DNA of 35,729 nucleotides from a virus, in the IMG/VR virus record IMGVR_UViG_3300045988_155769; one strand, written 5' to 3'. Positions within the stretch are counted from its first letter, which is position 1. The number at the start of each line of letters is the position of its first letter. The notes beneath the pieces are model-generated. The model made no database searches and was not told where the DNA came from. It was given only the letters and a program-made list of their open reading frames with translations. The position numbers and the translations under genes are program-made. This document shows positions 543 through 35,729 of this stretch, one piece after another.

Positions 543-1961
543 TTACTTAAAAAAAACATGCCAATTATTTACGGGATCGTCCGCATCTTGAACAATATGA
601 TCAATATATTCATACCAAAATAATCTTTTATTTTCACGTGTAAGCTTATTATATAGATCTAAAATAGTATTAGATTTCAATATTTTTTTATATTTTTCAA
701 GATTTCTTTTTTTAATTGAAACATCAACAGAATCCAGTTCTTGGATTTTTAATTGAGTAGCATTATAGTCATTATCATATTTTTCTTTTGTAATACGACC
801 ATCAAGATAAAGTTCATTAAGACGATCTAATTTATCTTTTAATCGTTCTACTTTATTAACATTTTTATTAATGACTTGTTTTTCTTCGACAGATTCAACA
901 GAAATAACATAATCATTTAACATAACCAGAAAATTAGATATAAGCCATTTTTCCAATTTATCCTCATTTACGGTATGATTATTAGAACATCGACAATCCA
1001 AGAAATGATTGCAGCATTTATAAGTTCCATAGCGAATACGAGTTCCATCAACATGATTCCTACCGGCACTTGATCCTCCCATTCTTCTTCCACAATCATA
1101 ACATCTAATAAGTCCAGAAAAAATAAAGAAATGATCAGAGTGCTTGTTAGGTTTATGATTTTTATTAATTAAATCTATTATTTTTTGATGTCGTTCTTTT
1201 GAAATGTAGGGCTCGCAGTATTCTTCAACTCCACGATAAACACCATGGTACATACTATTTTTAAGCATGTGTTTAACTCTTTCATAAAGTATAGGTCGTT
1301 GTGGGTAATTATCATGTAAATATTGAGTAGTAGCACGAAGAGAAAGTGTTTCCTCAAATTTATCAAACATATCGATAGCCATTTGTGATAGTTCTGGATC
1401 TTTAACAACTCTTTTATTTTGTTTTTCTCCCTCAATTTTATAACCAATTGGAAGAGCACCAGAAATAGGTCGCTTGTTGCGGACCATATTCTCAAAATTA
1501 AATTTAATTCTATCAGATGTTTGATCTGATTCATTTTGTGCAATAGATAATTTAATATTAAGATATAAGCGACCATTAGATGTAGACGTGTTGAATTCTT
1601 CATCAGAACATTCCCAATCAACGTTGTATTTATCTAATAAGTCTTGGATACGATAATAGTCTGCTACATTACGAAACCACCTATCAAGCCGCCAAATGAC
1701 AATCCTATCAATTTTATCAGATTTTACATCATCGAGTAATCGTAATAATTCTTTACGATTGGATATTTTAGTACGTGCTGATTTACCTTCATCGGCATAA
1801 ATATCCACAACTTGATAATTATGTTCTTTTGCCCATTCTATAAGCCTAGATTTTTGACTTTCTATTGAATATCCATGTTTTGCTTGTTCTTCTGTGGATA
1901 CTCTTATATATATAGCAACTCTTATTATTTTATCCTTTACATTCTTAATTATTTTACTCAT
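543..1961 (-). CDS. int: Large serine recombinase (phage integrase)
   Basis: The N-terminal resolvase domain reads VAIYIRVSTEEQ...GYSIESQ, followed by a recombinase domain, a Cys-rich zinc ribbon (CYDCGRRMGG...YKCCNHFLDCRC) and a coiled-coil tail. The ATG at 1961 with GGGAG 8 nt upstream is preferred over the TTG at 1976. Confidence 0.9.
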   Translation of the reverse strand: MSKIIKNVKDKIIRVAIYIRVSTEEQAKHGYSIESQKSRLIEWAKEHNYQVVDIYADEGKSARTKISNRKELLRLLDDVKSDKIDRIVIWRLDRWFRNVADYYRIQDLLDKYNVDWECSDEEFNTSTSNGRLYLNIKLSIAQNESDQTSDRIKFNFENMVRNKRPISGALPIGYKIEGEKQNKRVVKDPELSQMAIDMFDKFEETLSLRATTQYLHDNYPQRPILYERVKHMLKNSMYHGVYRGVEEYCEPYISKERHQKIIDLINKNHKPNKHSDHFFIFSGLIRCYDCGRRMGGSSAGRNHVDGTRIRYGTYKCCNHFLDCRCSNNHTVNEDKLEKWLISNFLVMLNDYVISVESVEEKQVINKNVNKVERLKDKLDRLNELYLDGRITKEKYDNDYNATQLKIQELDSVDVSIKKRNLEKYKKILKSNTILDLYNKLTRENKRLFWYEYIDHIVQDADDPVNNWHVFFK

Positions 1962-1979
1962 TAAAATCACTCCCAATTA

Positions 1980-4616: not shown

Positions 4617-5171
4617 ATGTTTAGAAATTTTAAAGATTGGCTAGTTTTAAAAATCGATTTGATTACAGAGGCTATCGGCATTAAATTTACTAGATATAAA
4701 GGTTTATGGGAACAACAGAACAAAGAAATTGATCTAATGAGATGTTCACATAATAAAGAGATTCAAAGATTAAAAAAACTTGTTGAATCTAAAGATTTAA
4801 TGATTAATAGTAAAAATATTCAAATAGATAATTTAAAAGACGAGAAATCTAAAATAAATGAAAATTATCAGAAATATAAACAAAAAACTAAAGAACAATA
4901 TCTTGATCTTATGAATAAGTATCAGGATTCAACATTAAAAGTTCAAGACTTGATAGCAGAAAAAAGAAAGTTGTCATCAAGTAAAGGGGGATTAAATACA
5001 AAAGTAAGATACCAGGATAAAAGAATTAAACAACTTGAAACAGAAAATGCAAGTATTAAAAAATTAATTCAACAAGTTGTTAAAGAAAGTGGTAGAAAAT
5101 TAACTCCACCAACAATCCAGGAATTACGAAATTACAATTTATACGGAAATAAGAAAGGAAAAAGAAAATGA
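4617..5171 (+). CDS. Hypothetical coiled-coil protein
   Basis: Long K/E/Q-rich heptad-like sequence. The start at 4617 (MFRNFKDW) is preferred to 4587 on RBS spacing. Confidence 0.5.
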   Translation: MFRNFKDWLVLKIDLITEAIGIKFTRYKGLWEQQNKEIDLMRCSHNKEIQRLKKLVESKDLMINSKNIQIDNLKDEKSKINENYQKYKQKTKEQYLDLMNKYQDSTLKVQDLIAEKRKLSSSKGGLNTKVRYQDKRIKQLETENASIKKLIQQVVKESGRKLTPPTIQELRNYNLYGNKKGKRK

Positions 5172-5464
5172 GTAAATTTGAAATAACATCTATCAGAGTT
5201 CATAAACTACCAAAATCAGAAGATAGCAACATAGTAGGTATAGCAAGCATTGTTTTAAATAATGCATTCCTAGTAAATGATATTAGGGTAATTCAGGGAA
5301 AAGAAAAATTATTTTGTGGGATGCCGTCAAGAAGATTAGAAGATAAATCTTTTATGGATATATGCCATCCATTAAATAACGAGGTTAGAAAGTATTTAGA
5401 AAATGCAGTATTAGCAGAATATATCAATGCAGAAGAATTAAAGGAGGATCCAAAGAATGAATAG
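5168..5464 (+). CDS. spoVG: SpoVG-family protein
   Basis: ITSIRVHKL...IVGIASIVLNNAFLVNDIRVIQGKEKLFCGMPSRR...FMDICHPLNNEVRKYLENAVL follows the SpoVG consensus. Confidence 0.75.
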   Translation: MSKFEITSIRVHKLPKSEDSNIVGIASIVLNNAFLVNDIRVIQGKEKLFCGMPSRRLEDKSFMDICHPLNNEVRKYLENAVLAEYINAEELKEDPKNE

Positions 5465-8918: not shown

Positions 8919-10076
8919 ATGGAAATTGTAAATAAAAATATCGAAGAAATCAAAATGTATGAAAATAATCCTAGAAATAATGACGGTGCAGTTGAGTATG
9001 TTGCTAATTCAATAAAAGAGTTTGGATTCAAAGTTCCAATAGTTTTAGATAAAAACAATATTATTGTAGCAGGGCATACTCGATATAAAGCCGCAAAATT
9101 ATTAAATATAACAGAAATACCATGTATTATTGCTGATGATTTAAGTGATGAACAAGTAAAGGCATTTAGATTAATTGATAATAAAGCCGCAGAATTAGCA
9201 TCATGGGATATTGACTTATTAAACCTTGAATTAGAAAACATCAAAGATATAGACATGGAATTATTTGATTTTCAAATAAGCAATATTTTAGATAATGTTG
9301 TCGATGATGAGTATGAGGTAGAATTACCAGAAGATCCAAAAACAAAAAACGGAAATATTTATAAATTAGGAAATCATTATTTGATGTGTGGTGATAGTAC
9401 CAATGCAGAAGATGTTAAAAAATTAATGAATAATCAATTAGCAGATTTAATTGTTACCGATCCACCATACAATGTCAATTACGAGGGAAAAACTGATAAT
9501 AATTTAAAAATTATGAATGACAATATGGAAGATAATCAGTTTTATAGTTTTTTAGAATCAGCATTTATAAATCTATACGATTCAATAAAAGCAGGAGGAT
9601 CCATTTATGTATTTCATGCAGATACAGAAGGATTAAATTTTAGAAAAGCAATGATGAGTTCTGGATTCAAATTAGCAGAGTGTTTAGTATGGGTAAAGAA
9701 TGCATTTGTAATGGGACGTCAAGATTATCATTGGAAACATGAGCCAGTACTATATGGATGGAAGCCAGGAGCAAGTCATTATTTCATAAATGATAGATCA
9801 CAAAGCACAGTATTAGAGTTTGATAAGCCAATAAGAAACGAAGAACATCCTACTATGAAACCTATCGATTTAATTGCTTATTTGATAAATAATTCAAGTA
9901 AAAAAGATGAAATTGTATTGGACCTTTTCGGAGGTAGTGGAACAACGATGATTGCTTGTGAGCAGACTAATAGAAAAGCCTTTATTATGGAATTAGATCC
10001 AAGATATTGCGACGTTATTGTTGATAGATGGGAAAAGTTTACTAATCAGAAAGCCGAACTAATCAACGAGGAATAG
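8919..10076 (+). CDS. ParB-like nuclease domain fused to an N6-adenine (beta-class, N4/N6 family) DNA methyltransferase
   Basis: The N-terminal ParB motif reads GFKVPIVLDKNNIIVAGHTRYKAA. Motif IV is IVTDPPYNV, and the AdoMet motif is LDLFGGSGTTMIACE. Confidence 0.9.
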   Translation: MEIVNKNIEEIKMYENNPRNNDGAVEYVANSIKEFGFKVPIVLDKNNIIVAGHTRYKAAKLLNITEIPCIIADDLSDEQVKAFRLIDNKAAELASWDIDLLNLELENIKDIDMELFDFQISNILDNVVDDEYEVELPEDPKTKNGNIYKLGNHYLMCGDSTNAEDVKKLMNNQLADLIVTDPPYNVNYEGKTDNNLKIMNDNMEDNQFYSFLESAFINLYDSIKAGGSIYVFHADTEGLNFRKAMMSSGFKLAECLVWVKNAFVMGRQDYHWKHEPVLYGWKPGASHYFINDRSQSTVLEFDKPIRNEEHPTMKPIDLIAYLINNSSKKDEIVLDLFGGSGTTMIACEQTNRKAFIMELDPRYCDVIVDRWEKFTNQKAELINEE

Positions 10077-12401: not shown

Positions 12402-13259
12402 ATGAATAAAGAAGAATTAAAAACTAAATTAGATGAATTTATCGAAAATATAGAATTAGAAGAATTGGCAGACAAAACAATTCAGAGTTATAGAAATGCA
12501 GTTAATAAGTTTATAGATTATTTGCCTAATGAATTTGAAATCAATAAAAAATTGGTTATGGATTGGAAAAAGAAAATGCAAGAAGATGGATATGCCTTAA
12601 AATCAAGAAATCAATTTATTGTAGTTGTAAATAAGTTCTTATATTATCTAGGTTTAGAAGAATGTGTTGTTAAATTATTTAAAGAACAAGAAAAATCTAA
12701 CTTAGAAGAATATATCGAGCCACAAGAACATAAGCGAATGTTAAGATGGGCTAAAAAATTAAATAATATGGAAGCTTATTATATAATTAAAGTTTTTGCA
12801 ACATCTGGAGCAAGGGTAAGTGAATTAAAATATTTTACTGTTGAAAATTTAGATAGTAATTATATTAAAGGTGCTTATAACAAAGGTAAAGAAAGAATTT
12901 TAATTATGACAAATGAATTAAGGCGAGAATTAAAGCATTATTGCAAAGATAAAAAAATTAAAACAGGTCAAATATTCAGAAGTACAGATGAAAAATTTAT
13001 AAATGATCCTAATAAGATGATAAATGTATCGACAATTTGGCGATGGTTGAAAAAGATAGCACGTGCAGCAAAGATTAATCCTAATAAAATCCATGCACAC
13101 GCATGGCGACATTTATTTGCAAAACAATGTAAAGAAAATGGCATCGATTTAGACGAATTAGCTGATATATTAGGACATAAAAATATAAACACAACGGCTA
13201 TATATACAAAAACCTCAATGAAAGAGAAAAAACAAAAATTAGAAAAAATAAGGTATTAA
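12402..13259 (+). CDS. Tyrosine recombinase (XerC/D-like, phage-integrase family)
   Basis: N-terminal SAM-like domain (TIQSYRNAVNKFIDYL). Catalytic signature is ATSGARVSEL ... HAWRHLFA ... LGHKNINTTAIYT. Confidence 0.85.
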   Translation: MNKEELKTKLDEFIENIELEELADKTIQSYRNAVNKFIDYLPNEFEINKKLVMDWKKKMQEDGYALKSRNQFIVVVNKFLYYLGLEECVVKLFKEQEKSNLEEYIEPQEHKRMLRWAKKLNNMEAYYIIKVFATSGARVSELKYFTVENLDSNYIKGAYNKGKERILIMTNELRRELKHYCKDKKIKTGQIFRSTDEKFINDPNKMINVSTIWRWLKKIARAAKINPNKIHAHAWRHLFAKQCKENGIDLDELADILGHKNINTTAIYTKTSMKEKKQKLEKIRY

Positions 13260-26504: not shown

Positions 26505-28312
26505 TAAGAATTTATAAAAATGATTGTGATGATTTTAATAATAATGGTCTTGGTATTCTATCAGACTTTAAAACATCACCTAAGATTAAAGAATCATTAA
26601 ATGGTAGTTTTGAATTATCTTTTGATTATGCCTTAAAAGGGCAAAATGCTGAATATCTTGTTGTAGATAACGTTATCAAGGCACCATACGATAGCAGTTA
26701 TCAGTTATTTAGAATCAAAAAAGTAAAACCTACTTTAACAAAGATAAATGTATATGCGGTGCATATATTTTATGATTTATCAGAAAACTTTTTAATGGAC
26801 GTTGCACCAACTAAAAAGACAGGAGTTAATGCTATTGCTTGGCTTTTAGAAAATGCAATGTTTCCGACAAAGTTTAGTGTAACTGGTGATTTAATTCCAG
26901 ATAATTCGGCAAGATATGTTCGTAAGAATATTGTCGATGCTATTTTAGGAGCCGATAACTGTGTTGTTAAAAGATGGGGTGGAGAAATTGAAAGAGATAA
27001 TTTTAGAATTATCTATCATAAACAAAGAGGTGAAGATAAAGGTGTTTATATCAAACATGGTAAAAATATCAAAGATATTGAAATATCAATTGATTTCACC
27101 TCTGTTATAACTCGTGTAGTCCCACAGGGTGCTAACGAGTTATTATTACCAGAATATTATGTCGATTCACCATTGATTAAAACTTATAGAAATCCAATTG
27201 TTGCTAAATATGAATTTGGCGATATTAAGGTGGATGAAGATACGACAGAAGAACAGGCTTATCAAAAATTAAGAGATGCAGCCAATGAATTATTTACTAA
27301 ACAGGGAATAGATAAGCCATCAATTAGTGTTAGAGTCAATTGGCTAGAACTATCTAAAACAGAAGAATATAGGTATAAATATAGTAATTTTGAGTCTGTA
27401 AGACTTGGTGATACTGTTACAGTACAAGCATTAGGATATGAATATAAAATTCGTGTTATTACAGTTGAATATGATTGCTTATTAAATAGATATACATCTT
27501 TTGAAATTGGTGATCCTAAAGCCGATTATGTATCTAATCAAACTCAAAGTATTACTTATGAGATTCAAAAGAGCACGTCTAGTTTATTAGATCAAGCAAG
27601 ACAAGCAGCAACGGCTTTGATTAATAACGGATTTGGAGGACATGTTAGAATCTATCCAGATAGAATTTTAATAATGGATACCGAAGACGAATCAACAGCA
27701 CGTAATGTTTGGCAATGGAACTTAAATGGATTTGCTCACTCTAAAACGGGAATTAACGGCGATTATGGGACCGCAATAACTATTGATGGTCAAATAGTAG
27801 CCGATAAAATCACATCAGGAACAATGGATGTTCAAAGAATCAATGGACTAGCAACAGAACTTGGAAGAATCAATGCTTCAATAGAATTAAATGAGAATAA
27901 TATTCAAGCATGTGTTAAGGCATCTGATTTCAATCATGATAAGCAGATATTAAATGAAAATATGGAATTATTAAAGCAACAACAATTAGATCTAGTTGCA
28001 ACAAGTGAATCATTATCAATCAATATTAGATCATTGGTTGAAAATGGTATGAATCGATTAAAGAATACTATGTTTGAAATTACAGATGAAGGTATGAGAA
28101 TTGCAAATGATCAAGACGAATTCAATGCTTTATATAATAACAAAGGATCTTATTTATATTCTTATGACAAGTTAGTTGCTAAATATGATAAAGACGGAGG
28201 CGAGAGTCCCGTTTTTGCAGTTACAGAAGAATTTAATATGTTAGGTATTAAATTTGAAAAAGAAATCGAAAATAACGAACAAGTTATTATGGGACATTGG
28301 CAAGGATGGTGA
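26501..28312 (+). CDS. Tail-associated protein (Tal, prophage-tail endopeptidase family)
   Basis: Position after Dit, a 603-aa length and an N-terminus typical of siphovirus Tal proteins. Confidence 0.7.
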   Translation: MIRIYKNDCDDFNNNGLGILSDFKTSPKIKESLNGSFELSFDYALKGQNAEYLVVDNVIKAPYDSSYQLFRIKKVKPTLTKINVYAVHIFYDLSENFLMDVAPTKKTGVNAIAWLLENAMFPTKFSVTGDLIPDNSARYVRKNIVDAILGADNCVVKRWGGEIERDNFRIIYHKQRGEDKGVYIKHGKNIKDIEISIDFTSVITRVVPQGANELLLPEYYVDSPLIKTYRNPIVAKYEFGDIKVDEDTTEEQAYQKLRDAANELFTKQGIDKPSISVRVNWLELSKTEEYRYKYSNFESVRLGDTVTVQALGYEYKIRVITVEYDCLLNRYTSFEIGDPKADYVSNQTQSITYEIQKSTSSLLDQARQAATALINNGFGGHVRIYPDRILIMDTEDESTARNVWQWNLNGFAHSKTGINGDYGTAITIDGQIVADKITSGTMDVQRINGLATELGRINASIELNENNIQACVKASDFNHDKQILNENMELLKQQQLDLVATSESLSINIRSLVENGMNRLKNTMFEITDEGMRIANDQDEFNALYNNKGSYLYSYDKLVAKYDKDGGESPVFAVTEEFNMLGIKFEKEIENNEQVIMGHWQGW

Positions 28313-28318
28313 TAGATA

Positions 28319-29944
28319 GTGAATGGTGGGACAGCAGTATTAGTCAAAAGCGGTAGATCTAACTATGGTAGTGGATTTAACATTAACTTATATGTTTATC
28401 ATAAACAAGTCTATCAAGATATAGCCAATAACTACACTAGAGTCGGTTTAGGAATGTATGTTCAAACACCAGGAACAAATTATACGATTGCATGGACTGA
28501 TTTTGGTTCTTATATTGGAATTAGTGGTGTAGGAACAAATAATTTTTCAGCAGGAGTTAACTACCAAGGTGGAACTATTTGGCTTATTACCAATCAGGAA
28601 TTTAATGTTTATCACAATTCAGATGGTACAAGATGGATAGATATTATATGGTCTTGGGGAGTTAATTCATCTTGGGGACAATTCGTTAAACCTAGTGGTA
28701 GTTTTGGAACAGGATTAAATAGAATACCAAGAACATCATCAGTATCATGTACTGATTTTAATATCGGTAGTGCAGCAACAATAAATATTAATAGAAATTC
28801 AAGTTCATTTACTCATACACTTACTTATTCGTTTGGTAATCAATCAGGAACGATTGCTAATAAAACGGGAGCCACGAGTGTTGGATGGCAAACACCAACA
28901 TCTTTATTCTCACAAATACCAAATACAACAAGTGGATGGGGAACAATAACATGCTATACATATTCAGGTGATACTTTAATAGGTACATCAACTTGTAGAT
29001 TTAATGCTTATGTTGTTAATAGTAATCCTAGTGTATCAGTATCAATAGTTGATGCAAATGCAAAAACGAAGAATTTAACAGGTAATGAAAATAAACTTGT
29101 TAAATATTATAGTAATGCAAAAATTACTATAAATGCGACCGCATTAAACTCATCATCTATCAAAAGTTATTCTATAAAATGTGATGATGGTAAAAATTCT
29201 ACATCATCATCAGCAACATTTAATAAAGTTGAAAGTGGTAAGTTTACAATTGTGGTAACAGATAGTAGAGGACTATCCACGACTCTAAACGTTTCTAAAA
29301 CATTGATAGACTACATTAAGTTAGCCTTTACAGACGTAAAAGTTAAGAGAGAGTCATCTACATCGTCAAAAGTATATTTAACTTATACAGGGCAGTATTT
29401 TAGTAAATCATTTGGTGAATTATTAAATACATTATTAGTTCGTTATAGAACTAGAATAAAAGATGGAACTTGGAGTGCATATAAAGAATTAAATCCAACA
29501 ATTAATGATAAAACTTTTTCACAATCCAATTTCTTAATTGGCAGTGATTTTTCATATCATAATAATTATGAATTTGAAATTGTCGCATCTGATAAATTAA
29601 TAAGTGATAGTGAAACACTTATTAAAAGAGATATTAAAATGGGTGAGGGATTATTTGAAATAAGAAAAGAATTATTTGGTATTCATGGAACATTTGAATC
29701 CGATTCTAAACCGTTAACTCAAAAGGATCTAAATAGTTGTATTTCAAGAACATATTTTGCAACATGTATAAAATGTCATAATACACCAAATAATAGCGAA
29801 TTTGGTTATTTACTTAATATATCGAGAAATGGAACAGATGAAAGAGAATTGTATAACAAACAATTCTTTTTTGATGGGACATCTAACGATATTTATGTAA
29901 GAACTATGAATAATAAGTCCTGGTTAAATTGGATAAAAGTATAG
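28319..29944 (+). CDS. Baseplate / receptor-binding-associated tail protein (DUF859-like N-terminus)
   Basis: GTG start. The N-terminal SGRSNYGSGFNINLYV...YTRVGLGMYV is typical of siphovirus baseplate proteins, and the rest is S/T/N-rich beta sequence. Confidence 0.6.
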   Translation: MNGGTAVLVKSGRSNYGSGFNINLYVYHKQVYQDIANNYTRVGLGMYVQTPGTNYTIAWTDFGSYIGISGVGTNNFSAGVNYQGGTIWLITNQEFNVYHNSDGTRWIDIIWSWGVNSSWGQFVKPSGSFGTGLNRIPRTSSVSCTDFNIGSAATININRNSSSFTHTLTYSFGNQSGTIANKTGATSVGWQTPTSLFSQIPNTTSGWGTITCYTYSGDTLIGTSTCRFNAYVVNSNPSVSVSIVDANAKTKNLTGNENKLVKYYSNAKITINATALNSSSIKSYSIKCDDGKNSTSSSATFNKVESGKFTIVVTDSRGLSTTLNVSKTLIDYIKLAFTDVKVKRESSTSSKVYLTYTGQYFSKSFGELLNTLLVRYRTRIKDGTWSAYKELNPTINDKTFSQSNFLIGSDFSYHNNYEFEIVASDKLISDSETLIKRDIKMGEGLFEIRKELFGIHGTFESDSKPLTQKDLNSCISRTYFATCIKCHNTPNNSEFGYLLNISRNGTDERELYNKQFFFDGTSNDIYVRTMNNKSWLNWIKV

Positions 29945-29955
29945 GAGGATAGAAA

Positions 29956-30294
29956 ATGCTTATAGAATTTCCTAGAGGCGATTATAAATCGTTATCGATA
30001 ACTATTACCGGTTATGCAGGAAAAATTGAGGAGTTGTATTTCACAGTAAAAGAAAATGCGAATTCAAGTAATGTTATCTTGCAAAAGAAAATTGGTGATG
30101 GGATCGAGTATTCAGAAGAAATCAAAAAGTATGTTTTAAAGTTCGAGCCTGGCGATACAGACAAATTAGAAATGAATAAAATATATGGTTTTGATTTTGA
30201 GGTTGTAGCAGAAAAGAAAAAACTAAAGAAAACATTTACAGGGCAATTTCATTTAACAAATGAATATACCCATACGAAAGATGAGGTGGAGTAA
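29956..30294 (+). CDS. Small tail-associated protein (beta-rich)
   Basis: AGGAGGA RBS. The position between tail-fibre genes supports this. Confidence 0.55.
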   Translation: MLIEFPRGDYKSLSITITGYAGKIEELYFTVKENANSSNVILQKKIGDGIEYSEEIKKYVLKFEPGDTDKLEMNKIYGFDFEVVAEKKKLKKTFTGQFHLTNEYTHTKDEVE

Positions 30295-31998
30295 ATGGAA
30301 GATCTTAATTTATCATTCGACGATATAGAGTTTTATAAAGGTACAAGTTTTTATGTTGCGGGTACTTGGAACAACACAACAAAGTATCATAATAACTCTA
30401 GCAGAATCGATGTAGTATCTCATAATGGTAATTCTTACACGGCTTTAAAGGATAATACAAATATAGAGCCCGGAACAGATAACACAGTATGGCAATTGAT
30501 GGCAAAAGCTGGCGATACTGGAACGATTGAGGTTGGGACAGTAGAAACAGTTGCAGCAGGTCAAAAAGCCACAGTAACAAACGTAGGAACGGCTCATAAA
30601 GCAAGATTAAACTTCAAAATACCAAAGGGCGAAGATGGCTCAACAGAAATTACTAATATCGACGAATTAGAAAATTATGTATATTATGGTGTAAGACGTA
30701 GAGTCAATCAAAATAGTTCAAGTGCCTGGGAAAGAACAGGAAGTGGAATTGGTAAAATAGCAAATGCTACTAAAAATGGCGATGCAGTAGTTAATGACTT
30801 TGATAATATTTATCCATGGTCAGATATAATTACTTGTAATGTAGATCCAAGCACAAATGAGGTCAAAGCATTTATTGGTGATCCAACCTTTGATTTTACA
30901 GGTAATAATGGCGAGGTAATGACACGAATTCCAGAGTTTTATTGGAAACGTTATGTAAAAGATGGATACGAATATATCAACATTTCAAGACACCATTTAG
31001 CAGATTATATTAAAAGTCCGGAATTCTTTGTTGGAAGATATGATGCAAGTTATGATGGAACATCGTTACATAGTGTTACTGGTCAAGTTCCAGAGGTACA
31101 AAGAAATATTGCAGCATTTAGATCTTTGGCAAAAGCAAAAGGTGATAAATGGTGTCAAATGGATTATCATTATTTCTTATTGCAAATGCTATATTTAGTA
31201 GAATATGCTGATTATAACTCACAAAGTAAACTTGGTAATGGTATTGTAGGATGTAGAGTTAGTGATGCTGATAAGGCATTAGTTGCAGAGAACAATACAA
31301 ATAGAATTATTATTAATACAAGTGCTGCTAATAGTTTTATTGTAGGTCAGCAAGTGAGCATAGGTACAAGTTCAGCATGGAATTGGACTGTAGCAAAAAA
31401 TAGAACAATTTTAAGCAAAGAGGCTTACAATAGTGGTGGAATAACAGGTACCGCAATAACCTTTGATGGAGATCCAGTAAATATTGCTTTAAATAATGTT
31501 TTATGGACGACAGGACAAAAATCAGGGCAATGTGATAGTTTAGGAATGAAATCAGGATGCTTGAATAATGATAGTAAACATGCTATAATATATCGTGGAA
31601 TCGAGAATATATTCGGTAATATATGGCAATTTGTTGATGGTATTAATATAAAAGAACATCAGTCTTATGTATGTACTAATCCAAGTGAATATGTATCTGA
31701 TACTTTTGCAGCTCCATATAAGAAATTAGGATATGCAAATTCAAACACAAATGGGTATGCGATGTCACTTGGATATGATAAAGAAAATCCTTTATTTGCA
31801 TTAACAACAGAAGTTGGAGGTGCAAGTTCTACTTATATGACTGATTATTATTATCAAAATACAGGAAATAGAATTGCTTTGGTCGGCGGCACTTATAGTA
31901 ATAGTACTAATGCCGGCTTGTGGTATTGGTATATGAGCAATACGTCTGGTAATGCGAGTTGCGGCATCGGGGCTCGTCTTCTTAAATACCAGGATTAA
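30295..31998 (+). CDS. Tail fibre / receptor-binding protein, the DGR target (variable C-terminal lectin-like domain)
   Basis: It carries the VR at codons for IALVGGTYSNSTNAGLWYWYMSNTSGNASCGIGARLL, ending 4 codons before the stop. The N-terminus has fibre-type motifs (GDTGTIEVGTVETVAAGQKATVTNVGT). Confidence 0.85.
   Translation: MEDLNLSFDDIEFYKGTSFYVAGTWNNTTKYHNNSSRIDVVSHNGNSYTALKDNTNIEPGTDNTVWQLMAKAGDTGTIEVGTVETVAAGQKATVTNVGTAHKARLNFKIPKGEDGSTEITNIDELENYVYYGVRRRVNQNSSSAWERTGSGIGKIANATKNGDAVVNDFDNIYPWSDIITCNVDPSTNEVKAFIGDPTFDFTGNNGEVMTRIPEFYWKRYVKDGYEYINISRHHLADYIKSPEFFVGRYDASYDGTSLHSVTGQVPEVQRNIAAFRSLAKAKGDKWCQMDYHYFLLQMLYLVEYADYNSQSKLGNGIVGCRVSDADKALVAENNTNRIIINTSAANSFIVGQQVSIGTSSAWNWTVAKNRTILSKEAYNSGGITGTAITFDGDPVNIALNNVLWTTGQKSGQCDSLGMKSGCLNNDSKHAIIYRGIENIFGNIWQFVDGINIKEHQSYVCTNPSEYVSDTFAAPYKKLGYANSNTNGYAMSLGYDKENPLFALTTEVGGASSTYMTDYYYQNTGNRIALVGGTYSNSTNAGLWYWYMSNTSGNASCGIGARLLKYQD
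31874..31984 (+). repeat. DGR variable repeat (VR)
   Basis: Aligns without gaps to 32122-32232 (offset 248). There are 13 mismatches, all opposite template adenines. Confidence 0.9.
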
Positions 31999-32007
31999 GT
32001 GGGGGAA

Positions 32008-32026
32008 TGGGGGCGACCAGCCCCCA
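32008..32026 (+). promoter_or_regulatory. GC-rich hairpin 10 nt after the target-gene stop
   Basis: tgggggc-gacca-gccccca (7-bp stem). Confidence 0.6.
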
Positions 32027-32034
32027 ATATAAGA

Positions 32035-32050
32035 ATCGACGTAAGTCGAT
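32035..32050 (+). promoter_or_regulatory. Second hairpin with a GNRA-type loop
   Basis: atcgac-gtaa-gtcgat (6-bp stem, GTAA loop). Confidence 0.5.
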
Positions 32051-32121
32051 AAAATGTTTTTTGAAAATTAAAATATAGGGATTTGACATGTAGAGCGTCC
32101 GGTTTCGGTGAGGAGTTCACT

Positions 32122-32232
32122 TTGCTTTGGTCGGCGGCAATTATAATAATAATACTAATGCCGGCTTGTGGTATTGGAATATGAACAATACATCTAGTAA
32201 TACGAATTACAACATCGGGGCTCGTCTACTTA
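32122..32232 (+). repeat. DGR template repeat (TR)
   Basis: It has 34 adenines, 13 of them substituted in the VR. All 77 non-A positions are identical. It reads as 11 AAY codons in the VR frame and has no start codon of its own. Confidence 0.9.
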
Positions 32233-32393
32233 TATGAAAAAATAAATTTTATTACATGTCATCTTCCTTACCACTTGGTAAAAATTAGTCGTTCTGGGCT
32301 GGGCTAGTAGGTTTATCTCTTGAATATAGAATTTCTCGAAAACTCGGCAGACAAATATAAGAATTCCAGAAATATCAGAGGAAAAGATCAAAA
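32122..32393 (+). ncRNA. DGR template RNA (TR plus 161-nt TR-RT spacer)
   Basis: Inferred from DGR architecture. The noncoding spacer between TR and RT contains a small hairpin (ttacc-actt-ggtaa, 32268-32281). The 5' boundary is unknown. Confidence 0.5.
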
Positions 32394-33452
32394 ATGAAAA
32401 GAGTAGGTAATATTTACGAAAAAATAATTCAATTAGGAAATATTGAATCAGCAGTAATGCATGCCGCAAAGGGTAAATCAAAAAGAAAAAACGTGGAGAA
32501 AATATTAGATTCCCCAACTTATTATGCTATGCAAGTTCAAAAGATGCTAAAAGAACACACTTATATTCCATCGCCTTATGTTGAAATGAAAATACTGGAC
32601 GGAGCAAGAAAAAAGGAAAGGATTATATATAAGCCTCAATTCTATCCTGATCAAGTAGTACATTGGGCTTTGATGCTTCAACTGGAGCCAATACTTATGA
32701 AAGGAATGTATGAATTCTGTTGTGCATCAGTTAAAAATAGGGGAATATTGTATGGTAAAAGGCATCTTGATAAGATCCTGGTAGATGATCGTAAATATAC
32801 CAAATATTGCTTGAAACTTGATGTAAAAAAGTTTTATCCATCAATTGATAAGACTATATTAAAACAAAAGTTTAGAAAAAAAATAAAAGATCGAGAAACA
32901 TTATGGCTTATTGATTTAATAATTGATAGTTCTGATGAAGGTGTTCCGATTGGAAATTATACATCACAATGGTTTGCTAACTTTTATTTGAGTGATTTGG
33001 ATCATTTTATTAAAGAAGAATTAAAAGTTAAATACTATGTTCGTTATATGGACGATATGGTGCTATTTTCTAATAATAAAAAGCAATTGCATAAAATAAA
33101 ATTAGCAATCGATGATTTTCTAGCAAAAGAACATTTAAGAATTAAAGAAAATTGGCAATTATTTAAAACAGATAGTCGTCCGTTAGACTTTTTAGGATAT
33201 AGATTTTATCGAGGGTATTCTACTTTAAGAAAAAGTAACTTTTTACGAATCAAAAGGCGAGCAAAGAAAATATCGAAAAAGAAAGAACTTAATTTTCATG
33301 ATGCGGCATCAATGTTATCCTATTCTGGATGGTTGAAACATTGTAATTCATACAATTATCAGCAAAAATACATTAAGCCGTATATCAATTACAATAAATG
33401 TAAGGAGGTCGTTAGTAATGAAAGTAAGAAGCGACAGGCTTCCTCAAAATGA
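32394..33452 (+). CDS. DGR-type reverse transcriptase
   Basis: Motifs are YCLKLDVKKFYPSI, the DGR-specific GVPIGNYTSQWFANFYL (I/LGxxxSQ), the YVRYMDDMVLF (YxDD) motif and LDFLGYRF. The N-terminal NIYEKI...AAKGKSKRKNV is typical of DGR RTs. Confidence 0.92.
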   Translation: MKRVGNIYEKIIQLGNIESAVMHAAKGKSKRKNVEKILDSPTYYAMQVQKMLKEHTYIPSPYVEMKILDGARKKERIIYKPQFYPDQVVHWALMLQLEPILMKGMYEFCCASVKNRGILYGKRHLDKILVDDRKYTKYCLKLDVKKFYPSIDKTILKQKFRKKIKDRETLWLIDLIIDSSDEGVPIGNYTSQWFANFYLSDLDHFIKEELKVKYYVRYMDDMVLFSNNKKQLHKIKLAIDDFLAKEHLRIKENWQLFKTDSRPLDFLGYRFYRGYSTLRKSNFLRIKRRAKKISKKKELNFHDAASMLSYSGWLKHCNSYNYQQKYIKPYINYNKCKEVVSNESKKRQASSK

Positions 33453-33927
33453 TTTTGAAATCAATAATATTCAAGGCAACGAATGCAACGTTGTCTTTTT
33501 TGATACTAAAAATCATAAAGAGGAAAAAGATGAAAATGAAAATATATCATACGAATATGATGCATACAATATCAAAACAACTTATAGGAGCACGTTAGGA
33601 GCAGATATAAGCAAAAATTACGAAAAATGGTACAATTATGCTATCCAGTATGAAAAAGATGTTCTAGCAACAGAAATAAGGGCGAAAAGAAACGAATTAT
33701 TGAATGAAAGCGACAAAGAATTGGCTATTGACAGATTTTCATTTGAATTTCCCGAAGAAATAACAATGTTAAACATCTTACAAGTAATCAAAAGTTTTTT
33801 CTCTGTTTTATCAAGTATAACTAATGGTAAATGGGCTAAATATCGTCAGCAATTAAGAGATATTACTAAACAGGAGGAATTTCCATATAATGTCGAGTTC
33901 CCTAAAAAGCCCACAGATAATGAATAA
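33418..33927 (+). CDS. Tail-fibre assembly chaperone-like protein
   Basis: RAKRNELLNESDKELAIDR and WAKYRQQLRDITKQEEFPYNVEFPKKP resemble the Tfa-type C-terminal signature (W..YR..L......P....P..P). A strong AAGGAGG RBS lies inside the RT 3' end, giving a 35-nt overlap. Confidence 0.5.
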   Translation: MKVRSDRLPQNDFEINNIQGNECNVVFFDTKNHKEEKDENENISYEYDAYNIKTTYRSTLGADISKNYEKWYNYAIQYEKDVLATEIRAKRNELLNESDKELAIDRFSFEFPEEITMLNILQVIKSFFSVLSSITNGKWAKYRQQLRDITKQEEFPYNVEFPKKPTDNE

Positions 33928-34274
33928 TGGATACCATTATTGTAACGGCTATTACGACTGTTGGAGTTGTAATAACAACTCTTATTCAAAGTTCTAATGC
34001 ACGAAAAAAGGATAATATAGAGGCGAAATTAGATAATATCAGAAAACAATTTATTGACAAAATAGATTCATTGAAAGAAAACTTAAATCAAGAAACACTA
34101 GCAAGATGTAAAGCAGATTTAGTTTCATTAATGTCAAAAATTAAAAATGGTTATACCCCAACAGTAGAAGAAAAATTAATATTACATGAATCAAAGAAAA
34201 AGTATAACGATCTAGGTGGAGATAGTTATGTTGATGAAATGTTTGATAATTTAGTGAAAGAAGGTAAGATATAA
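33927..34274 (+). CDS. Membrane-anchored helical protein of the lysis region
   Basis: The N-terminal TM helix is IIVTAITTVGVVITTLI, followed by helical K/E-rich sequence. TAATG junction. Confidence 0.5.
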   Translation: MDTIIVTAITTVGVVITTLIQSSNARKKDNIEAKLDNIRKQFIDKIDSLKENLNQETLARCKADLVSLMSKIKNGYTPTVEEKLILHESKKKYNDLGGDSYVDEMFDNLVKEGKI

Positions 34275-34591
34275 TGGATACTTTTCTAACCTGGGAAGTT
34301 CTACTAACATTTAGTGGGTTAGTAGGAGCAGTCTACATGGTCGTTGAATTCACAAAAGAAATAAAGTTTATAAATAAAATTCCAACTAAATATTGGAGTT
34401 TTTTTATTGCAGCATTTCTAATAATGATGACGAATGTAGTTACAGAATCATTTAATTATAAAGATATAGTTCTTTATCTTTTAAATTCAATAGTAGTTAG
34501 TTTGAGTTCTAACGGCTTAAATGACTTTAACAAGGGCAAATCAAAAGAAACATCAGAAAAACATGAGAATGATATAAAAGAGGGCGAATAA
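34274..34591 (+). CDS. Holin (three predicted TM helices, charged C-tail)
   Basis: TM segments are VLLTFSGLVGAVYMVVEF, YWSFFIAAFLIMMTNVV and IVLYLLNSIVVSL. It lies immediately upstream of the endolysin. Confidence 0.65.
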   Translation: MDTFLTWEVLLTFSGLVGAVYMVVEFTKEIKFINKIPTKYWSFFIAAFLIMMTNVVTESFNYKDIVLYLLNSIVVSLSSNGLNDFNKGKSKETSEKHENDIKEGE

Positions 34592-34601
34592 GCCCTTTTT
34601 T
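34581..34601 (+). terminator. Weak hairpin plus T-run spanning the holin stop codon
   Basis: agggc-gaataa-gccct, then TTTTT. Confidence 0.3.
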
Positions 34602-34623
34602 GTATAGATTGGAGGTTTTATCT

Positions 34624-35598
34624 ATGGAAGATGAAAAAAATGTTGAAATCGTAGAAGAAAATACAGAATTAGAAATCCAAACTACATTTAATGAGGATGG
34701 ATTAGATGTATTAGTCGAAGACGGTACAATAGAAAATGAAAATGCAGAGGAGCCAGAAGGTATTGGAGCCGGCGAAAACTTTTCAATGAGAACAAGTAAG
34801 CCAGGTGCAGGTAATAAGTTCTTTATTACACGAAGCAGAGGCGGATATTCTACATGTATTCAGGGAAGCCCAACAGATAGTAAATGTAATGTACTTGCTA
34901 ACTGTGTAGGATATGCTTGCGGACGTTTCAATGAAATAATTGGAGCAATGAAATATCCATCATTAAATTGTAATGCAGAAAACTTTATTGAAAGAGCAAG
35001 AAATACCTATGGATTAGAAATATCACCAGTTCCTACATTAGGTGGTATTATGGTATGGCAAAAAGGATCTACATTATCAGGTGGTGATGGTGCAGGACAT
35101 GTTGCTATCGTTGAAAAGATTATTGATAGTAATACTATTTATACAAGTGAATCAGGTTATGGATCAAGTGCTTTCTGGAATAGTACAAGAAGCAATAGTA
35201 ATGGTAGATGGGGATTAGGTAGTGGTTATACATTTAGAGGATGTATTGTTAATCCCGCTATTGGTAAAGTAACCGCTCCAACATCTAATAGTGCGAATCC
35301 ATTTCCAGGTGTATCTGATGAGGAACTAGCAAGACGTGTTTGGTCCGGTGAATTTGGAAACGGCACAACTAGACAAGAGAGATTAGGATCAAGATATGCA
35401 GCAGTTCAAGCACTTGTTAATAGAGGTGTAGGAAAGCCAGGAACAACAAGTAATGTACCTTATGCAGGTGTATCTGACGAGGAATTAGCACGTCGTGTTT
35501 GGCGAGGCGAATTTGGAAATGGAGCAACTAGAAGACAAAAACTAGGATCAAGATATGCAGCAGTTCAAGCACTTGTTAATAGAGGTGTAGGTAGATAA
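34624..35598 (+). CDS. Endolysin: CHAP-type amidase/peptidase with two C-terminal Cpl-7-like (CW_7-like) wall-binding repeats
   Basis: Catalytic Cys context is NVLANCVGYACGRF and His context is AGHVAIVEKI. The repeated unit is GVSDEELARRVW.GEFGNG.TR...LGSRYAAVQALVNRGVG. GGAGG lies upstream of the ATG at 34624. Confidence 0.8.
   Translation: MEDEKNVEIVEENTELEIQTTFNEDGLDVLVEDGTIENENAEEPEGIGAGENFSMRTSKPGAGNKFFITRSRGGYSTCIQGSPTDSKCNVLANCVGYACGRFNEIIGAMKYPSLNCNAENFIERARNTYGLEISPVPTLGGIMVWQKGSTLSGGDGAGHVAIVEKIIDSNTIYTSESGYGSSAFWNSTRSNSNGRWGLGSGYTFRGCIVNPAIGKVTAPTSNSANPFPGVSDEELARRVWSGEFGNGTTRQERLGSRYAAVQALVNRGVGKPGTTSNVPYAGVSDEELARRVWRGEFGNGATRRQKLGSRYAAVQALVNRGVGR
35308..35591 (+). repeat. Two copies of a 125-bp coding repeat (35308-35432 and 35467-35591, period 159 bp)
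   Basis: Direct comparison shows the last 49 nt of each copy are identical, and the codons upstream differ mostly at synonymous sites. Confidence 0.9.
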
Positions 35599-35602
35599 GA
35601 AA

Positions 35603-35640
35603 AGAGGTAATGACACAAATGTCACTACCTCTTTTTTTTT
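35603..35640. terminator. Bidirectional rho-independent terminator (endolysin on +, RHH-like gene on -)
   Basis: agaggtaatgaca-caaa-tgtcactacctct (13-bp stem, one mismatch), followed by T9 on the plus strand and a U-rich tail on the minus strand. Confidence 0.8.
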
Positions 35641-35729
35641 GCCTTTAAATCCTCTATGGCATTTCTAATAAATTGAGTTTGAGTTAATCCTTCCTCGGCT
35701 AATAATTTATCAAGTTCTTCCTTTTCTTC
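35631..35729. repeat. Terminal direct repeat, right copy (identical to 1-99)
   Basis: Base-by-base identity, read directly. Confidence 0.95.

What the first reader, a model, noticed from the sequence alone, without database searches (positions are those of the whole stretch)
31999..34274. The DGR lacks a recognisable Avd and is wedged between the fibre gene and a fibre-chaperone-like gene that overlaps the RT
Seen: only 123 bp separate the target stop (31998) from the TR, and only 161 bp separate the TR from the RT. Neither gap holds an ORF on either strand apart from an antisense artefact (32230-32517). The ORF upstream of the target (29956-30294) is beta-rich and not basic. Immediately downstream, a 169-aa ORF with a Tfa-like C-terminal signature starts 35 nt inside the RT, behind a strong AAGGAGG. 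Established: most characterised DGRs need a small basic four-helix-bundle accessory protein (Avd), usually encoded between the target and the TR. A minority have a different accessory protein or none. Inference: either this RT works without Avd, or one of the two downstream ORFs (33418-33927 or 33927-34274) is an unrecognised accessory factor. The cassette may also have been inserted into a pre-existing fibre-chaperone gene pair.
Basis: partly seen in the sequence, partly recalled or inferred. Interest (0 to 1): 0.65.

Follow-up and report, generated by a model that had tools for sequence, protein, structure and literature searches.

The report
Avd-less phage DGR with RT-18 RNA
This prophage carries a working tail-fibre hypermutation cassette (a diversity-generating retroelement) that has no Avd helper protein, a minimal layout already known from surveys, and the two genes after it are an ordinary fibre chaperone and a lysis-region membrane protein.

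Summary
The target gene ends at 31998, the TR lies at 32122-32235 and the RT at 32394-33452. Neither gap holds a credible ORF. No Avd or HRDC protein is detectable anywhere in the window, although the same searches find both next to outgroup RTs.

The gaps are not empty. The VR-TR gap holds a conserved G5/C5 hairpin (32008-32026). The TR-RT gap holds the Rfam RT-18 RNA (32269-32361).

The element is active. Eleven near-identical prophage copies differ at 35 VR positions, 32 of them TR adenines. Flanking DNA differs at about 1% of positions, and the TR is invariant.

The whole RT clade (LBR48, Arawn, Perkons and over 100 metagenomic loci) has the same compact target-TR-RT layout. This matches the published accessory-free "Architecture A".

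ORF 33418-33927 is a PF16778 tail-fibre assembly chaperone. The same kind of gene also follows the RT in a lineage with a weak Avd-like ORF, so it is not an Avd substitute. ORF 33927-34274 occurs in phages without a DGR.

Verdict: a new member of a known kind. The unrecognised-accessory reading is unlikely.

The parts
30295..31998 (+). DGR target gene: a tail fibre / receptor-binding protein (567 aa) with a C-type-lectin-like variable C-terminus
   Evidence: phrog_5302 tail protein, 3.7e-58. It carries the VR at its 3' end. Homologs sit upstream of the RT in relatives.
31874..31987 (+). Variable repeat (VR)
   Evidence: 88% identical to the TR, with 13 of 14 mismatches at TR adenines. Among 11 copies of the prophage, 35 columns vary and 32 of them lie at TR-A positions.
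32008..32026 (+). G5/C5 hairpin (TGGGGGC-GACCA-GCCCCCA) about 20 nt after the VR. It is a likely target-recognition hairpin or cruciform, as in BPP-1.
   Evidence: Present at the same position with compensatory stem changes in at least 25 of 36 related loci. The role is inferred from the BPP-1 work (PMC3240598 title and abstract, listed).
32035..32050 (+). Terminator-like hairpin followed by a T-run, after the target gene
   Evidence: Consensus scan found 2 sites where shuffles give 0.1. This is a consensus match only.
32122..32235 (+). Template repeat (TR), 35 adenines
   Evidence: It is invariant in all 10 sequences that retain it: the window and 9 of the 10 other contigs.
32269..32361 (+). 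RT-18 RNA (Rfam RF03021), a structured RNA in the TR-RT spacer
   Evidence: 61.9 bits against a gathering score of 41.3, E 8e-11, full-length match. It lies at the same position in 10 related loci, including LBR48.
32394..33452 (+). DGR reverse transcriptase (352 aa, pI 9.75), with the IGNYTSQ and YMDD motifs
   Evidence: RVT_1 1.6e-15 and phrog_1423 1e-112. The best solved relative is BPP-1 bRT 8ub7_A, 5e-34.
33418..33927 (+). Tail-fibre assembly chaperone-like gene (169 aa, pI 5.0). It overlaps the RT 3' end by 35 nt and has its own AAGGAGG.
   Evidence: PF16778 1.3e-12 and phrog_4912 2.3e-15. All 80 database homologs are PF16778. The AF2 model has an N-terminal beta domain plus helices, is not a four-helix bundle, and has no PDB fold match. 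hhalign against Avd gives probability 0.4%.
33927..34274 (+). Membrane-anchored helical protein (115 aa) at the tail/lysis junction. It is not part of the DGR.
   Evidence: No Pfam match; phrog_13632, function unknown. The model is a TM helix plus three helices with no PDB match. Family members sit before holin genes in phages with no RT. hhalign against Avd gives probability 0.2%.
32230..32517 (-). Antisense 95-aa ORF, an artefact
   Evidence: No Pfam or PHROG match. It overlaps the RT-18 RNA and the RT start.

Best explanation
This is an active, minimal diversity-generating retroelement made of target, TR and RT, with no Avd or other phage-encoded accessory protein.

Inferred mechanism, by analogy with BPP-1. 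A transcript covering the TR and the downstream RT-18 RNA is bound by the RT. The structured spacer positions and probably primes cDNA synthesis. Adenines are misread. The cDNA then replaces the VR at the 3' end of the fibre gene, guided by the GC-rich VR end and the G5/C5 hairpin.

Roles of the downstream genes. orf169, which overlaps the RT, is the fibre's Tfa-like assembly chaperone. The unit fibre tip-TR-RT-chaperone travels as one module between phages. orf115 belongs to the lysis region.

Shown here: the anatomy, the absence of Avd, the RT-18 match, clade-wide conservation of the layout, and natural VR diversification. Inferred: the priming role of RT-18, self-sufficiency of the RT, and the chaperone function.
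For: - A-specific TR/VR mismatches.
- Eleven near-identical prophage copies from different samples differ at 35 of 114 VR columns, 32 of them at TR adenines. About 40 SNP columns occur in about 4000 flanking nt, and the TR is invariant.
- No Avd by Pfam (PF05635, PF22296), by a custom HMM or by hhalign. Positive controls exist in outgroup loci.
- About 35 related loci with clean A-only pairs have gaps of 63-222 nt (VR to TR) and about 90-230 nt (TR to RT). The distance from target end to RT is 275-470 nt in most loci with RT-HMM E below 1e-100, and longer where tandem VR/TR-like units intervene.
- Named phages Arawn and Perkons have the same layout.
- RT-18 RNA scores above the Rfam gathering score here and in 10 relatives.
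- The hairpin is conserved with compensatory changes.
- orf169 is PF16778 / Tfa-like. 68 of 80 loci with Tfa-like relatives have no RT.
- A PF16778 gene also overlaps the RT end in a different RT lineage (L090-type loci) that has a weak Avd-like ORF.
- The module occurs in both siphovirus-like and Mu-like baseplate contexts.
- Literature: Wu et al. 2018 (PMC5758913) describe Architecture A and an avd-less Lineage 3. Weinberg et al. 2017 (PMC5737381) place RT-10 in the TR-brt spacer of BPP-1.
Against: - In BPP-1, bRT alone has no RT activity and needs Avd (PMC6182149). Self-sufficiency of this RT is therefore not a given and is untested biochemically.
- A host-encoded factor in trans was not excluded, because the host MAGs were not scanned.
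- orf169 is almost never separated from the RT. The conserved 30-50-nt overlap, and the slightly better divergence correlation with the RT than with the target, would also fit a DGR-linked role.
- The one RT-less case (L084) is a deletion derivative at 94-97% nt identity. Retention of orf169 there is weak evidence.
- Arawn and Perkons gave no RT-18 hit at the gathering threshold.
Confidence: 0.75

Rival explanations
1. orf169, the acidic Tfa-like protein translationally overlapping the RT, is a DGR accessory factor. It might correspond to the 'CH1' class of Wu et al. It would either replace Avd or couple diversification to fibre folding.
For: - It sits immediately after the RT and overlaps it in nearly all loci with RT identity of 62% or more, and in several at about 50%.
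- The gene after the RT is almost always small and acidic across the avd-less clade, even where it is not homologous to orf169.
- Its divergence tracks the RT at least as well as the target.
- CH1 is described as 160-169 aa, pI 4.7, and found only in avd-less DGRs. orf169 is 169 aa with pI 5.0.
Against: - It clearly belongs to PF16778 / tail-fibre assembly families.
- Its C-terminal domain is common after fibre genes in phages without an RT.
- A PF16778 gene also follows the RT in a lineage that has a weak Avd-like ORF.
- The genes after the RT in LBR48, Arawn and Perkons are not homologous to it.
- An acidic protein is an unlikely nucleic-acid cofactor.
- It is intact in the TR/RT-deleted L084.
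Confidence: 0.1
2. The RT still needs an Avd-like or other cofactor that is supplied in trans by the host chromosome or by another prophage.
For: bRT is inactive without Avd. Only a few kb of the host contigs around the prophage were examined here.
Against: Wu et al. searched genomes of avd-less DGRs with an avd profile and found none. The clade spans hosts labelled Bacilli/Mollicutes, Clostridia, Melainabacteria and Alphaproteobacteria, and also strictly phage contigs. That spread makes a shared host factor unlikely.
Confidence: 0.08
3. The cassette is a decaying DGR that has lost avd and no longer works.
For: Individual decayed copies exist. L175 has a 172-nt deletion that removes the TR. 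L084 has lost the TR and most of the RT.
Against: The RT ORF is intact, with catalytic and DGR motifs. The VR is hypervariable at TR adenines among near-identical prophages while the TR is invariant. No relative in the clade carries avd, so none has been lost.
Confidence: 0.02
4. An Avd homolog is present in the window but is too divergent to recognise.
For: Avd genes are poorly conserved. Several small early-region ORFs have no annotation.
Against: No hit appeared in the Pfam scan of ORFs of at least 60 aa, or in the custom HMM run without filters on every six-frame segment of at least 30 aa. The two nearby candidates are not four-helix bundles and are not basic. The same HMMs pick up even weak Avds in L090-type loci.
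Confidence: 0.03

Closest known systems
Architecture A1 (target-TR-RT, no accessory gene) DGRs and the avd-less 'Lineage 3' of Wu et al. 2018 (NAR 46:11; PMC5758913)
   Same: TR-RT core with no avd, HRDC or MSL gene. A single adjacent target with a C-terminal CLec-type VR. Phage-associated. Few non-A substitutions.
   Different: Placement in Lineage 3 was not tested phylogenetically. The link to RT-18 RNA and the conserved RT/Tfa overlap do not appear in the passages of that paper read here.
Bordetella phage BPP-1 DGR (mtd-avd-TR-brt)
   Same: The target is a phage receptor-binding protein with a 3' VR. Mutagenesis is adenine-specific. A GC-rich VR end is followed by a hairpin. [quoted passage not shown] The RT aligns with bRT 8ub7 at 5e-34.
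   Different: There is no Avd. Only 123 nt lie upstream of the TR, where BPP-1 has the avd coding sequence that contributes to its DGR RNA. The spacer RNA belongs to a different Rfam family (RT-18).
DGR regions of Lactobacillus phage LBR48, Butyrivibrio phages Arawn and Idris, and Psychrobacillus phage Perkons
   Same: They are the closest named RTs (43-52% identity). Arawn and Perkons have the same compact VR-TR-RT spacing and no ORF between target and RT. LBR48 has RT-18 upstream of its RT. The gene after the RT overlaps its 3' end in LBR48 and Perkons.
   Different: Their downstream genes are not homologous to orf169. Arawn and Perkons gave no RT-18 hit at the gathering threshold.
Tail fibre assembly (Tfa-type) chaperones: Pfam PF16778 Phage_tail_APC and PHROG 4912, 8746 and 188
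   Same: orf169 has the C-terminal YRQxLRD...FPYxVxFP signature, is small and acidic, and lies just downstream of the fibre gene.
   Different: It is separated from its fibre by TR-RT and overlaps the RT. It has an N-terminal beta domain found only next to this fibre family. No solved structure matches the whole model.

Membership tests
Diversity-generating retroelement | TR/VR repeat pair whose mismatches are at TR adenines | tested here: met
   13 of 14 mismatches are A to N.
Diversity-generating retroelement | Adjacent RT of the DGR type (related to bRT; [I/L]GxxxSQ and YMDD motifs) | tested here: met
   RVT_1 and phrog_1423. bRT 8ub7 at 5e-34. IGNYTSQ and YMDD are visible in the translation.
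Diversity-generating retroelement | Ongoing diversification of the VR with an invariant TR | tested here: met
   32 of the 35 variable VR columns lie at TR-A positions among 11 copies, and the TR is invariant.
BPP-1-type (Architecture B) Avd-dependent DGR | An avd gene (basic four-helix bundle; PF05635 / PF22296) in the cassette | tested here: not met
   There is no room in the 123-nt and about 160-nt gaps.
HRDC- or MSL-type DGRs (Architectures C and D) | An HRDC or MutS-like accessory gene | tested here: not met
   No PF00570 or MutS_I hit in the window ORFs. HRDC was detected in the outgroup loci L246 and L250.
Architecture A (Wu et al. 2018) | TR-RT core with no accessory gene and an adjacent target | tested here: met
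   The definition was read.
Lineage 3 (Wu et al. 2018) | Placement in that RT clade by phylogeny | not testable with these tools
   The reference RT set and supplementary files are not held. There is only indirect support: about 40% identity to Bacteroides crAss-like RTs.
Rfam RF03021 RT-18 RNA | Covariance-model score above the gathering threshold, located next to an RT gene | tested here: met
   61.9 bits against 41.3, full-length, 33 nt upstream of the RT.
PF16778 Phage_tail_APC / Tfa-like chaperone (orf169) | HMM match above the curated cut-off | tested here: met
   47.8 bits against 26.6. All 80 homologs carry PF16778.
PF16778 Phage_tail_APC / Tfa-like chaperone (orf169) | Assists folding or assembly of the adjacent fibre | not testable with these tools
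   Inferred only from homology and position.
CH1 accessory protein (Wu et al. 2018) | 160-169 aa, acidic (pI about 4.7), flanking avd-less DGRs | tested here: met
   169 aa, pI 4.98, directly after the RT. This is a resemblance only.
CH1 accessory protein (Wu et al. 2018) | Sequence homology to the CH1 family | not testable with these tools
   CH1 sequences are in supplementary data that are not held.
Avd (tested for orf169 and orf115) | Basic pI, four-helix bundle, profile similarity to Avd | tested here: not met
   pI 5.0 and 6.6. Models. No Avd fold hit. hhalign probability 0.4% and 0.2%.

The most novel reading that the evidence does not exclude
The small acidic Tfa-like protein whose gene overlaps the RT is a dual-purpose factor. 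It would chaperone the fibre tip and also act as the protein partner of the Avd-less RT, like the uncharacterised 'CH1' class. Together with the RT-18 RNA it would replace Avd.
Probability: 0.1. Interest if true: 0.7.

Novelty: new member of a known kind. Interest (0 to 1): 0.35.

Why it matters
Avd-less DGRs make up roughly a quarter of known DGRs, but none of the papers found here reports a biochemical test of one. The one reconstituted system (BPP-1) strictly needs Avd.

This locus is a clean and demonstrably active example. It has a compact RNA (TR plus RT-18) and a single protein. That makes it a good candidate for testing how adenine mutagenesis can run without Avd, and for building smaller targeted-mutagenesis tools. 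It also gives a biological context (an active DGR) to the orphan Rfam motif RT-18.

Beyond that, the finding is ordinary. The architecture and the fibre-chaperone gene are both expected features of phage tail modules.

Tried and rejected
- Megablast of 28300-35729 against GenBank phages found nothing.
- The exact-pattern scan of JGI metagenome contigs for the VR-downstream 40-mer found nothing. The IMG/VR scan returned only the contig already held.
It was redone with database homologs.
- Fold searches of the orf169 and orf115 models against the PDB gave no significant match, so they say nothing positive about function.
- A profile search of the orf169 family against PDB sequences hit only an uncharacterised NMR structure, 2kz6.
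- A correlation of orf169 divergence with target versus RT divergence (13 loci) was inconclusive. It is confounded by physical linkage.
- L084 first looked like an ancestral fibre-chaperone pair without a DGR. This was rejected: it keeps a remnant of the RT 3' end and is a deletion derivative of an L048-like phage.
- The supplementary tables of Wu et al. are not held, so CH1 and Lineage 3 could not be checked.
- The promoter scan in the gaps was no better than shuffled sequence.
Full report
**Observation**

The window is a complete temperate siphophage of a low-GC Firmicute. It encodes a serine recombinase, terminase, portal, ClpP protease, capsid protein, tape measure, Dit, Tal and a DUF859 tail protein.

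At its right end there is a clear DGR. A 114-nt VR (31874-31987) closes ORF 30295-31998, a 567-aa tail protein (phrog_5302, 3.7e-58). A TR lies at 32122-32235. Of 14 mismatches, 13 are TR-A to VR-N, mostly at codon positions 1 and 2. The RT ORF is 32394-33452 (RVT_1 1.6e-15; phrog_1423 1e-112). Its closest solved relative is BPP-1 bRT (8ub7_A, 5e-34).

There are 123 nt from the stop codon to the TR and about 160 nt from the TR to the RT. The only ORFs there are antisense (41 aa and 95 aa). The 95-aa ORF has no Pfam or PHROG match. ORF 33418-33927 starts 35 nt inside the RT, behind AAGGAGG. It is a PF16778 Phage_tail_APC / tail-fibre-assembly protein.

**Is Avd really absent?**

Pfam-A holds both PF05635 and the newer PF22296 bAvd model. 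It gave no hit at E<=0.1 for ORFs of at least 60 aa on both strands; the tape-measure ORF and one antisense ORF nested in it were not submitted to that scan.

As a positive control I examined outgroup DGRs whose RTs are 32-40% identical to this one. The small ORFs abutting those RTs score 1e-17 to 1e-30 on bAvd, and two carry HRDC.

An HMM built from eight of those Avds was run without filters against all 444 six-frame segments of at least 30 aa in the window, a set that includes the two ORFs left out of the Pfam scan. The best E was 0.2. The same HMM recovers Avds that were not used to build it.

The two candidate ORFs are not basic (pI 5.0 and 6.6). Their AlphaFold models are not four-helix bundles. 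orf169 (pLDDT 83) has an N-terminal beta domain followed by helices. orf115 (pLDDT 78) has a TM helix, a long helix and two short helices. Neither model matches any PDB fold. hhalign against the Avd alignment gives probabilities of 0.4% and 0.2%.

**The gaps are not empty**

The TR-RT spacer holds Rfam RF03021, the RT-18 RNA, at 32269-32361. The score is 61.9 bits against a gathering score of 41.3, and the match is full-length. RT-18 lies at the same place in LBR48 and in nine metagenomic relatives.

Weinberg et al. (PMC5737381) defined the RT-1 to RT-19 motifs as structures near RT genes. They noted that RT-10 occupies the TR-brt spacer of BPP-1, and they speculated that other RT motifs serve other DGRs. 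In BPP-1 that spacer is required for cDNA synthesis and supplies the priming 2'-OH at Sp A56 (PMC6182149).

The VR-TR gap holds a G5/C5 hairpin at 32008-32026. It recurs about 20-25 nt after the VR in at least 25 of 36 relatives, with compensatory stem changes. By my own knowledge of the BPP-1 literature (Guo et al. 2011, PMC3240598, listed), this corresponds to the target-recognition hairpin or cruciform. A terminator-like hairpin follows at 32035-32050.

**The layout is a property of the RT clade**

The nearest named RTs are Lactobacillus phage LBR48 (52%), Psychrobacillus phage Perkons and Butyrivibrio phages Arawn and Idris (43%), and crAss-like phages (about 40%). Arawn and Perkons have the same VR-TR-RT spacing with no gene in between.

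In IMG/VR, 246 relatives were found and 80 were fetched. About 35 loci with clean A-only repeat pairs have VR-to-TR gaps of 63-222 nt and TR-to-RT gaps of about 90-230 nt. In GTDB genomes, the distance from target end to RT is 275-470 nt in most loci whose RT scores E below 1e-100 on the clade HMM. It is longer (about 590-1470 nt) in the close relatives whose gap is filled with tandem VR/TR-like units. bAvd and HRDC genes appear only with more distant RTs, where that distance is 550-1450 nt.

The hosts of the closest relatives are uncultured gut MAGs labelled Bacilli, Mollicutes or Tenericutes.

This matches what Wu et al. 2018 describe (PMC5758913). In their set 74% of DGRs have avd. "Architecture A" (TR-RT with no accessory gene) covers 75 of 372. 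"Lineage 3 notably lacks avd". No trans-encoded avd was found in those genomes, which suggests Avd-independent homing.

**The element is active**

Ten contigs from independent samples encode exactly the same RT protein. I aligned them with the window over about 4.1 kb. The VR has 35 substitution columns out of 114, and 32 of them fall on TR adenines. The remaining roughly 4000 nt have about 40 SNP columns (about 1%). The TR is identical in every copy that has one.

Two variants show local decay or slippage. L175 lacks 172 nt (window 32103-32274), which removes the TR and the 5' edge of RT-18. L181 has a 6-nt insertion in the VR.

**The two downstream ORFs**

*orf169.* All 80 database homologs carry PF16778. 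Hits in named phages are annotated as tail fibre assembly or chaperone proteins.

Full-length homologs sit directly after the RT and overlap its 3' end by 30-50 nt. This holds in nearly all loci with RT identity of at least 62%, and in several at about 50%. The module also appears behind a Mu-gp48-type baseplate, so fibre tip-TR-RT-chaperone moves as a unit.

Four lines of evidence argue against an Avd-replacing role:
- The C-terminal Tfa-like half is widespread after fibre genes in phages with no RT (68 of 80 loci).
- A PF16778 gene overlaps the RT end in a different RT lineage (L090, L091, L096, L097). That lineage also has a weak Avd-like ORF between VR and TR, and it has RT-2 RNA.
- The genes after the RT in LBR48, Arawn and Perkons are unrelated to orf169.
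- orf169 is intact in L084, which lacks the TR and RT.

L084, however, is not an ancestral state. It is 94-97% identical in nucleotides to L048 and keeps a 70-nt remnant of the RT 3' end, so it is a deletion derivative. The divergence correlation test was inconclusive.

One lead remains untestable here. Wu et al.'s uncharacterised "CH1" accessory is 160-169 aa, has pI 4.7 and occurs only in avd-less DGRs. That resembles orf169 in size and charge. Across the avd-less clade, the gene after the RT is almost always small and acidic.

*orf115.* The family has no Pfam domain. It occurs between tail genes and holin/endolysin genes in phages with no RT. It is present in only a few of the RT-bearing relatives.

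**Conclusion**

The "hidden accessory" reading is unlikely, at about 0.1 for orf169 and negligible for orf115.

The "inserted between fibre and chaperone" picture is reasonable as a description of the gene order. The data show a long-standing four-part module, and do not show a recent insertion.

The architecture is already catalogued, so this is a new member of a known kind. Three things are modestly new:
- direct population evidence that such an Avd-less element is active;
- the assignment of Rfam RT-18 to the TR-RT spacer of this clade;
- the conserved RT/Tfa overlap.

Noticed in passing
L013:4559-5864, L190:4407-5856, L188:4851-5863, L025:4721-5856 (relatives; not in the window): In close relatives (RT 77-81% identical) the space between target and RT holds a tandem array of 5-8 VR/TR-like units. 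Each unit is about 113 nt and the period is about 155 nt. The units have conserved arms, but their cores differ at 30-60 positions, not only at adenines. Some units are AAY-rich, others look already diversified. The in-gene VR pairs with the last unit in L190 but with an internal unit in L025. This could be a multi-template 'TR library' or a set of silent cassettes. It is unexplained.
   Followed up: partly
L175 (equivalent to window 32103-32274): One otherwise near-identical prophage copy has a 172-nt deletion that removes the whole TR and the 5' edge of the RT-18 RNA. It is presumably a dead DGR with a frozen VR.
   Followed up: partly
L084:4903-5000 compared with L048:5727-7027: A phage 94-97% identical to L048 has lost the TR and about 90% of the RT. 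It keeps a 70-nt remnant of the RT 3' end, and the fibre and an intact chaperone gene are now adjacent.
   Followed up: yes
L181 (equivalent to window about 31898): A 6-nt in-frame insertion inside the VR in one copy of the prophage.
   Followed up: no
L090:1870-5306 (also L091, L096, L097): A different RT lineage has the canonical order: target (DUF6273), weak Avd-like ORF, TR, RT-2 RNA (RF03077), RT. A PF16778 Tfa-like gene overlaps the RT 3' end there too.
   Followed up: partly
window 35299-35432 and 35458-35591: An 85%-identical direct repeat inside the endolysin gene (34600-35598; CHAP plus CW_7). It encodes the two CW_7 cell-wall-binding repeats. Among otherwise identical prophages the lysin varies (324 or 377 aa, or is replaced), which suggests changes in repeat number or module swaps.
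   Followed up: no
window 12402-13259 (+) and 543-1976 (-): The phage carries a tyrosine recombinase-like gene (Phage_integrase, 1.7e-22) in the middle of the early region. This is in addition to the serine recombinase at the left end.
   Followed up: no
window 5168-5464 and 8919-10076: The early region encodes a SpoVG homolog (1e-24) and a ParB-N plus N6/N4 DNA methylase fusion.
   Followed up: no
loci: Across the avd-less RT clade, the ORF immediately after the RT is nearly always small (80-220 aa) and acidic (pI 4.1-5.3), and it overlaps the RT stop. This holds even where it is not homologous to orf169. In Avd-bearing outgroups no such gene is seen.
   Followed up: partly
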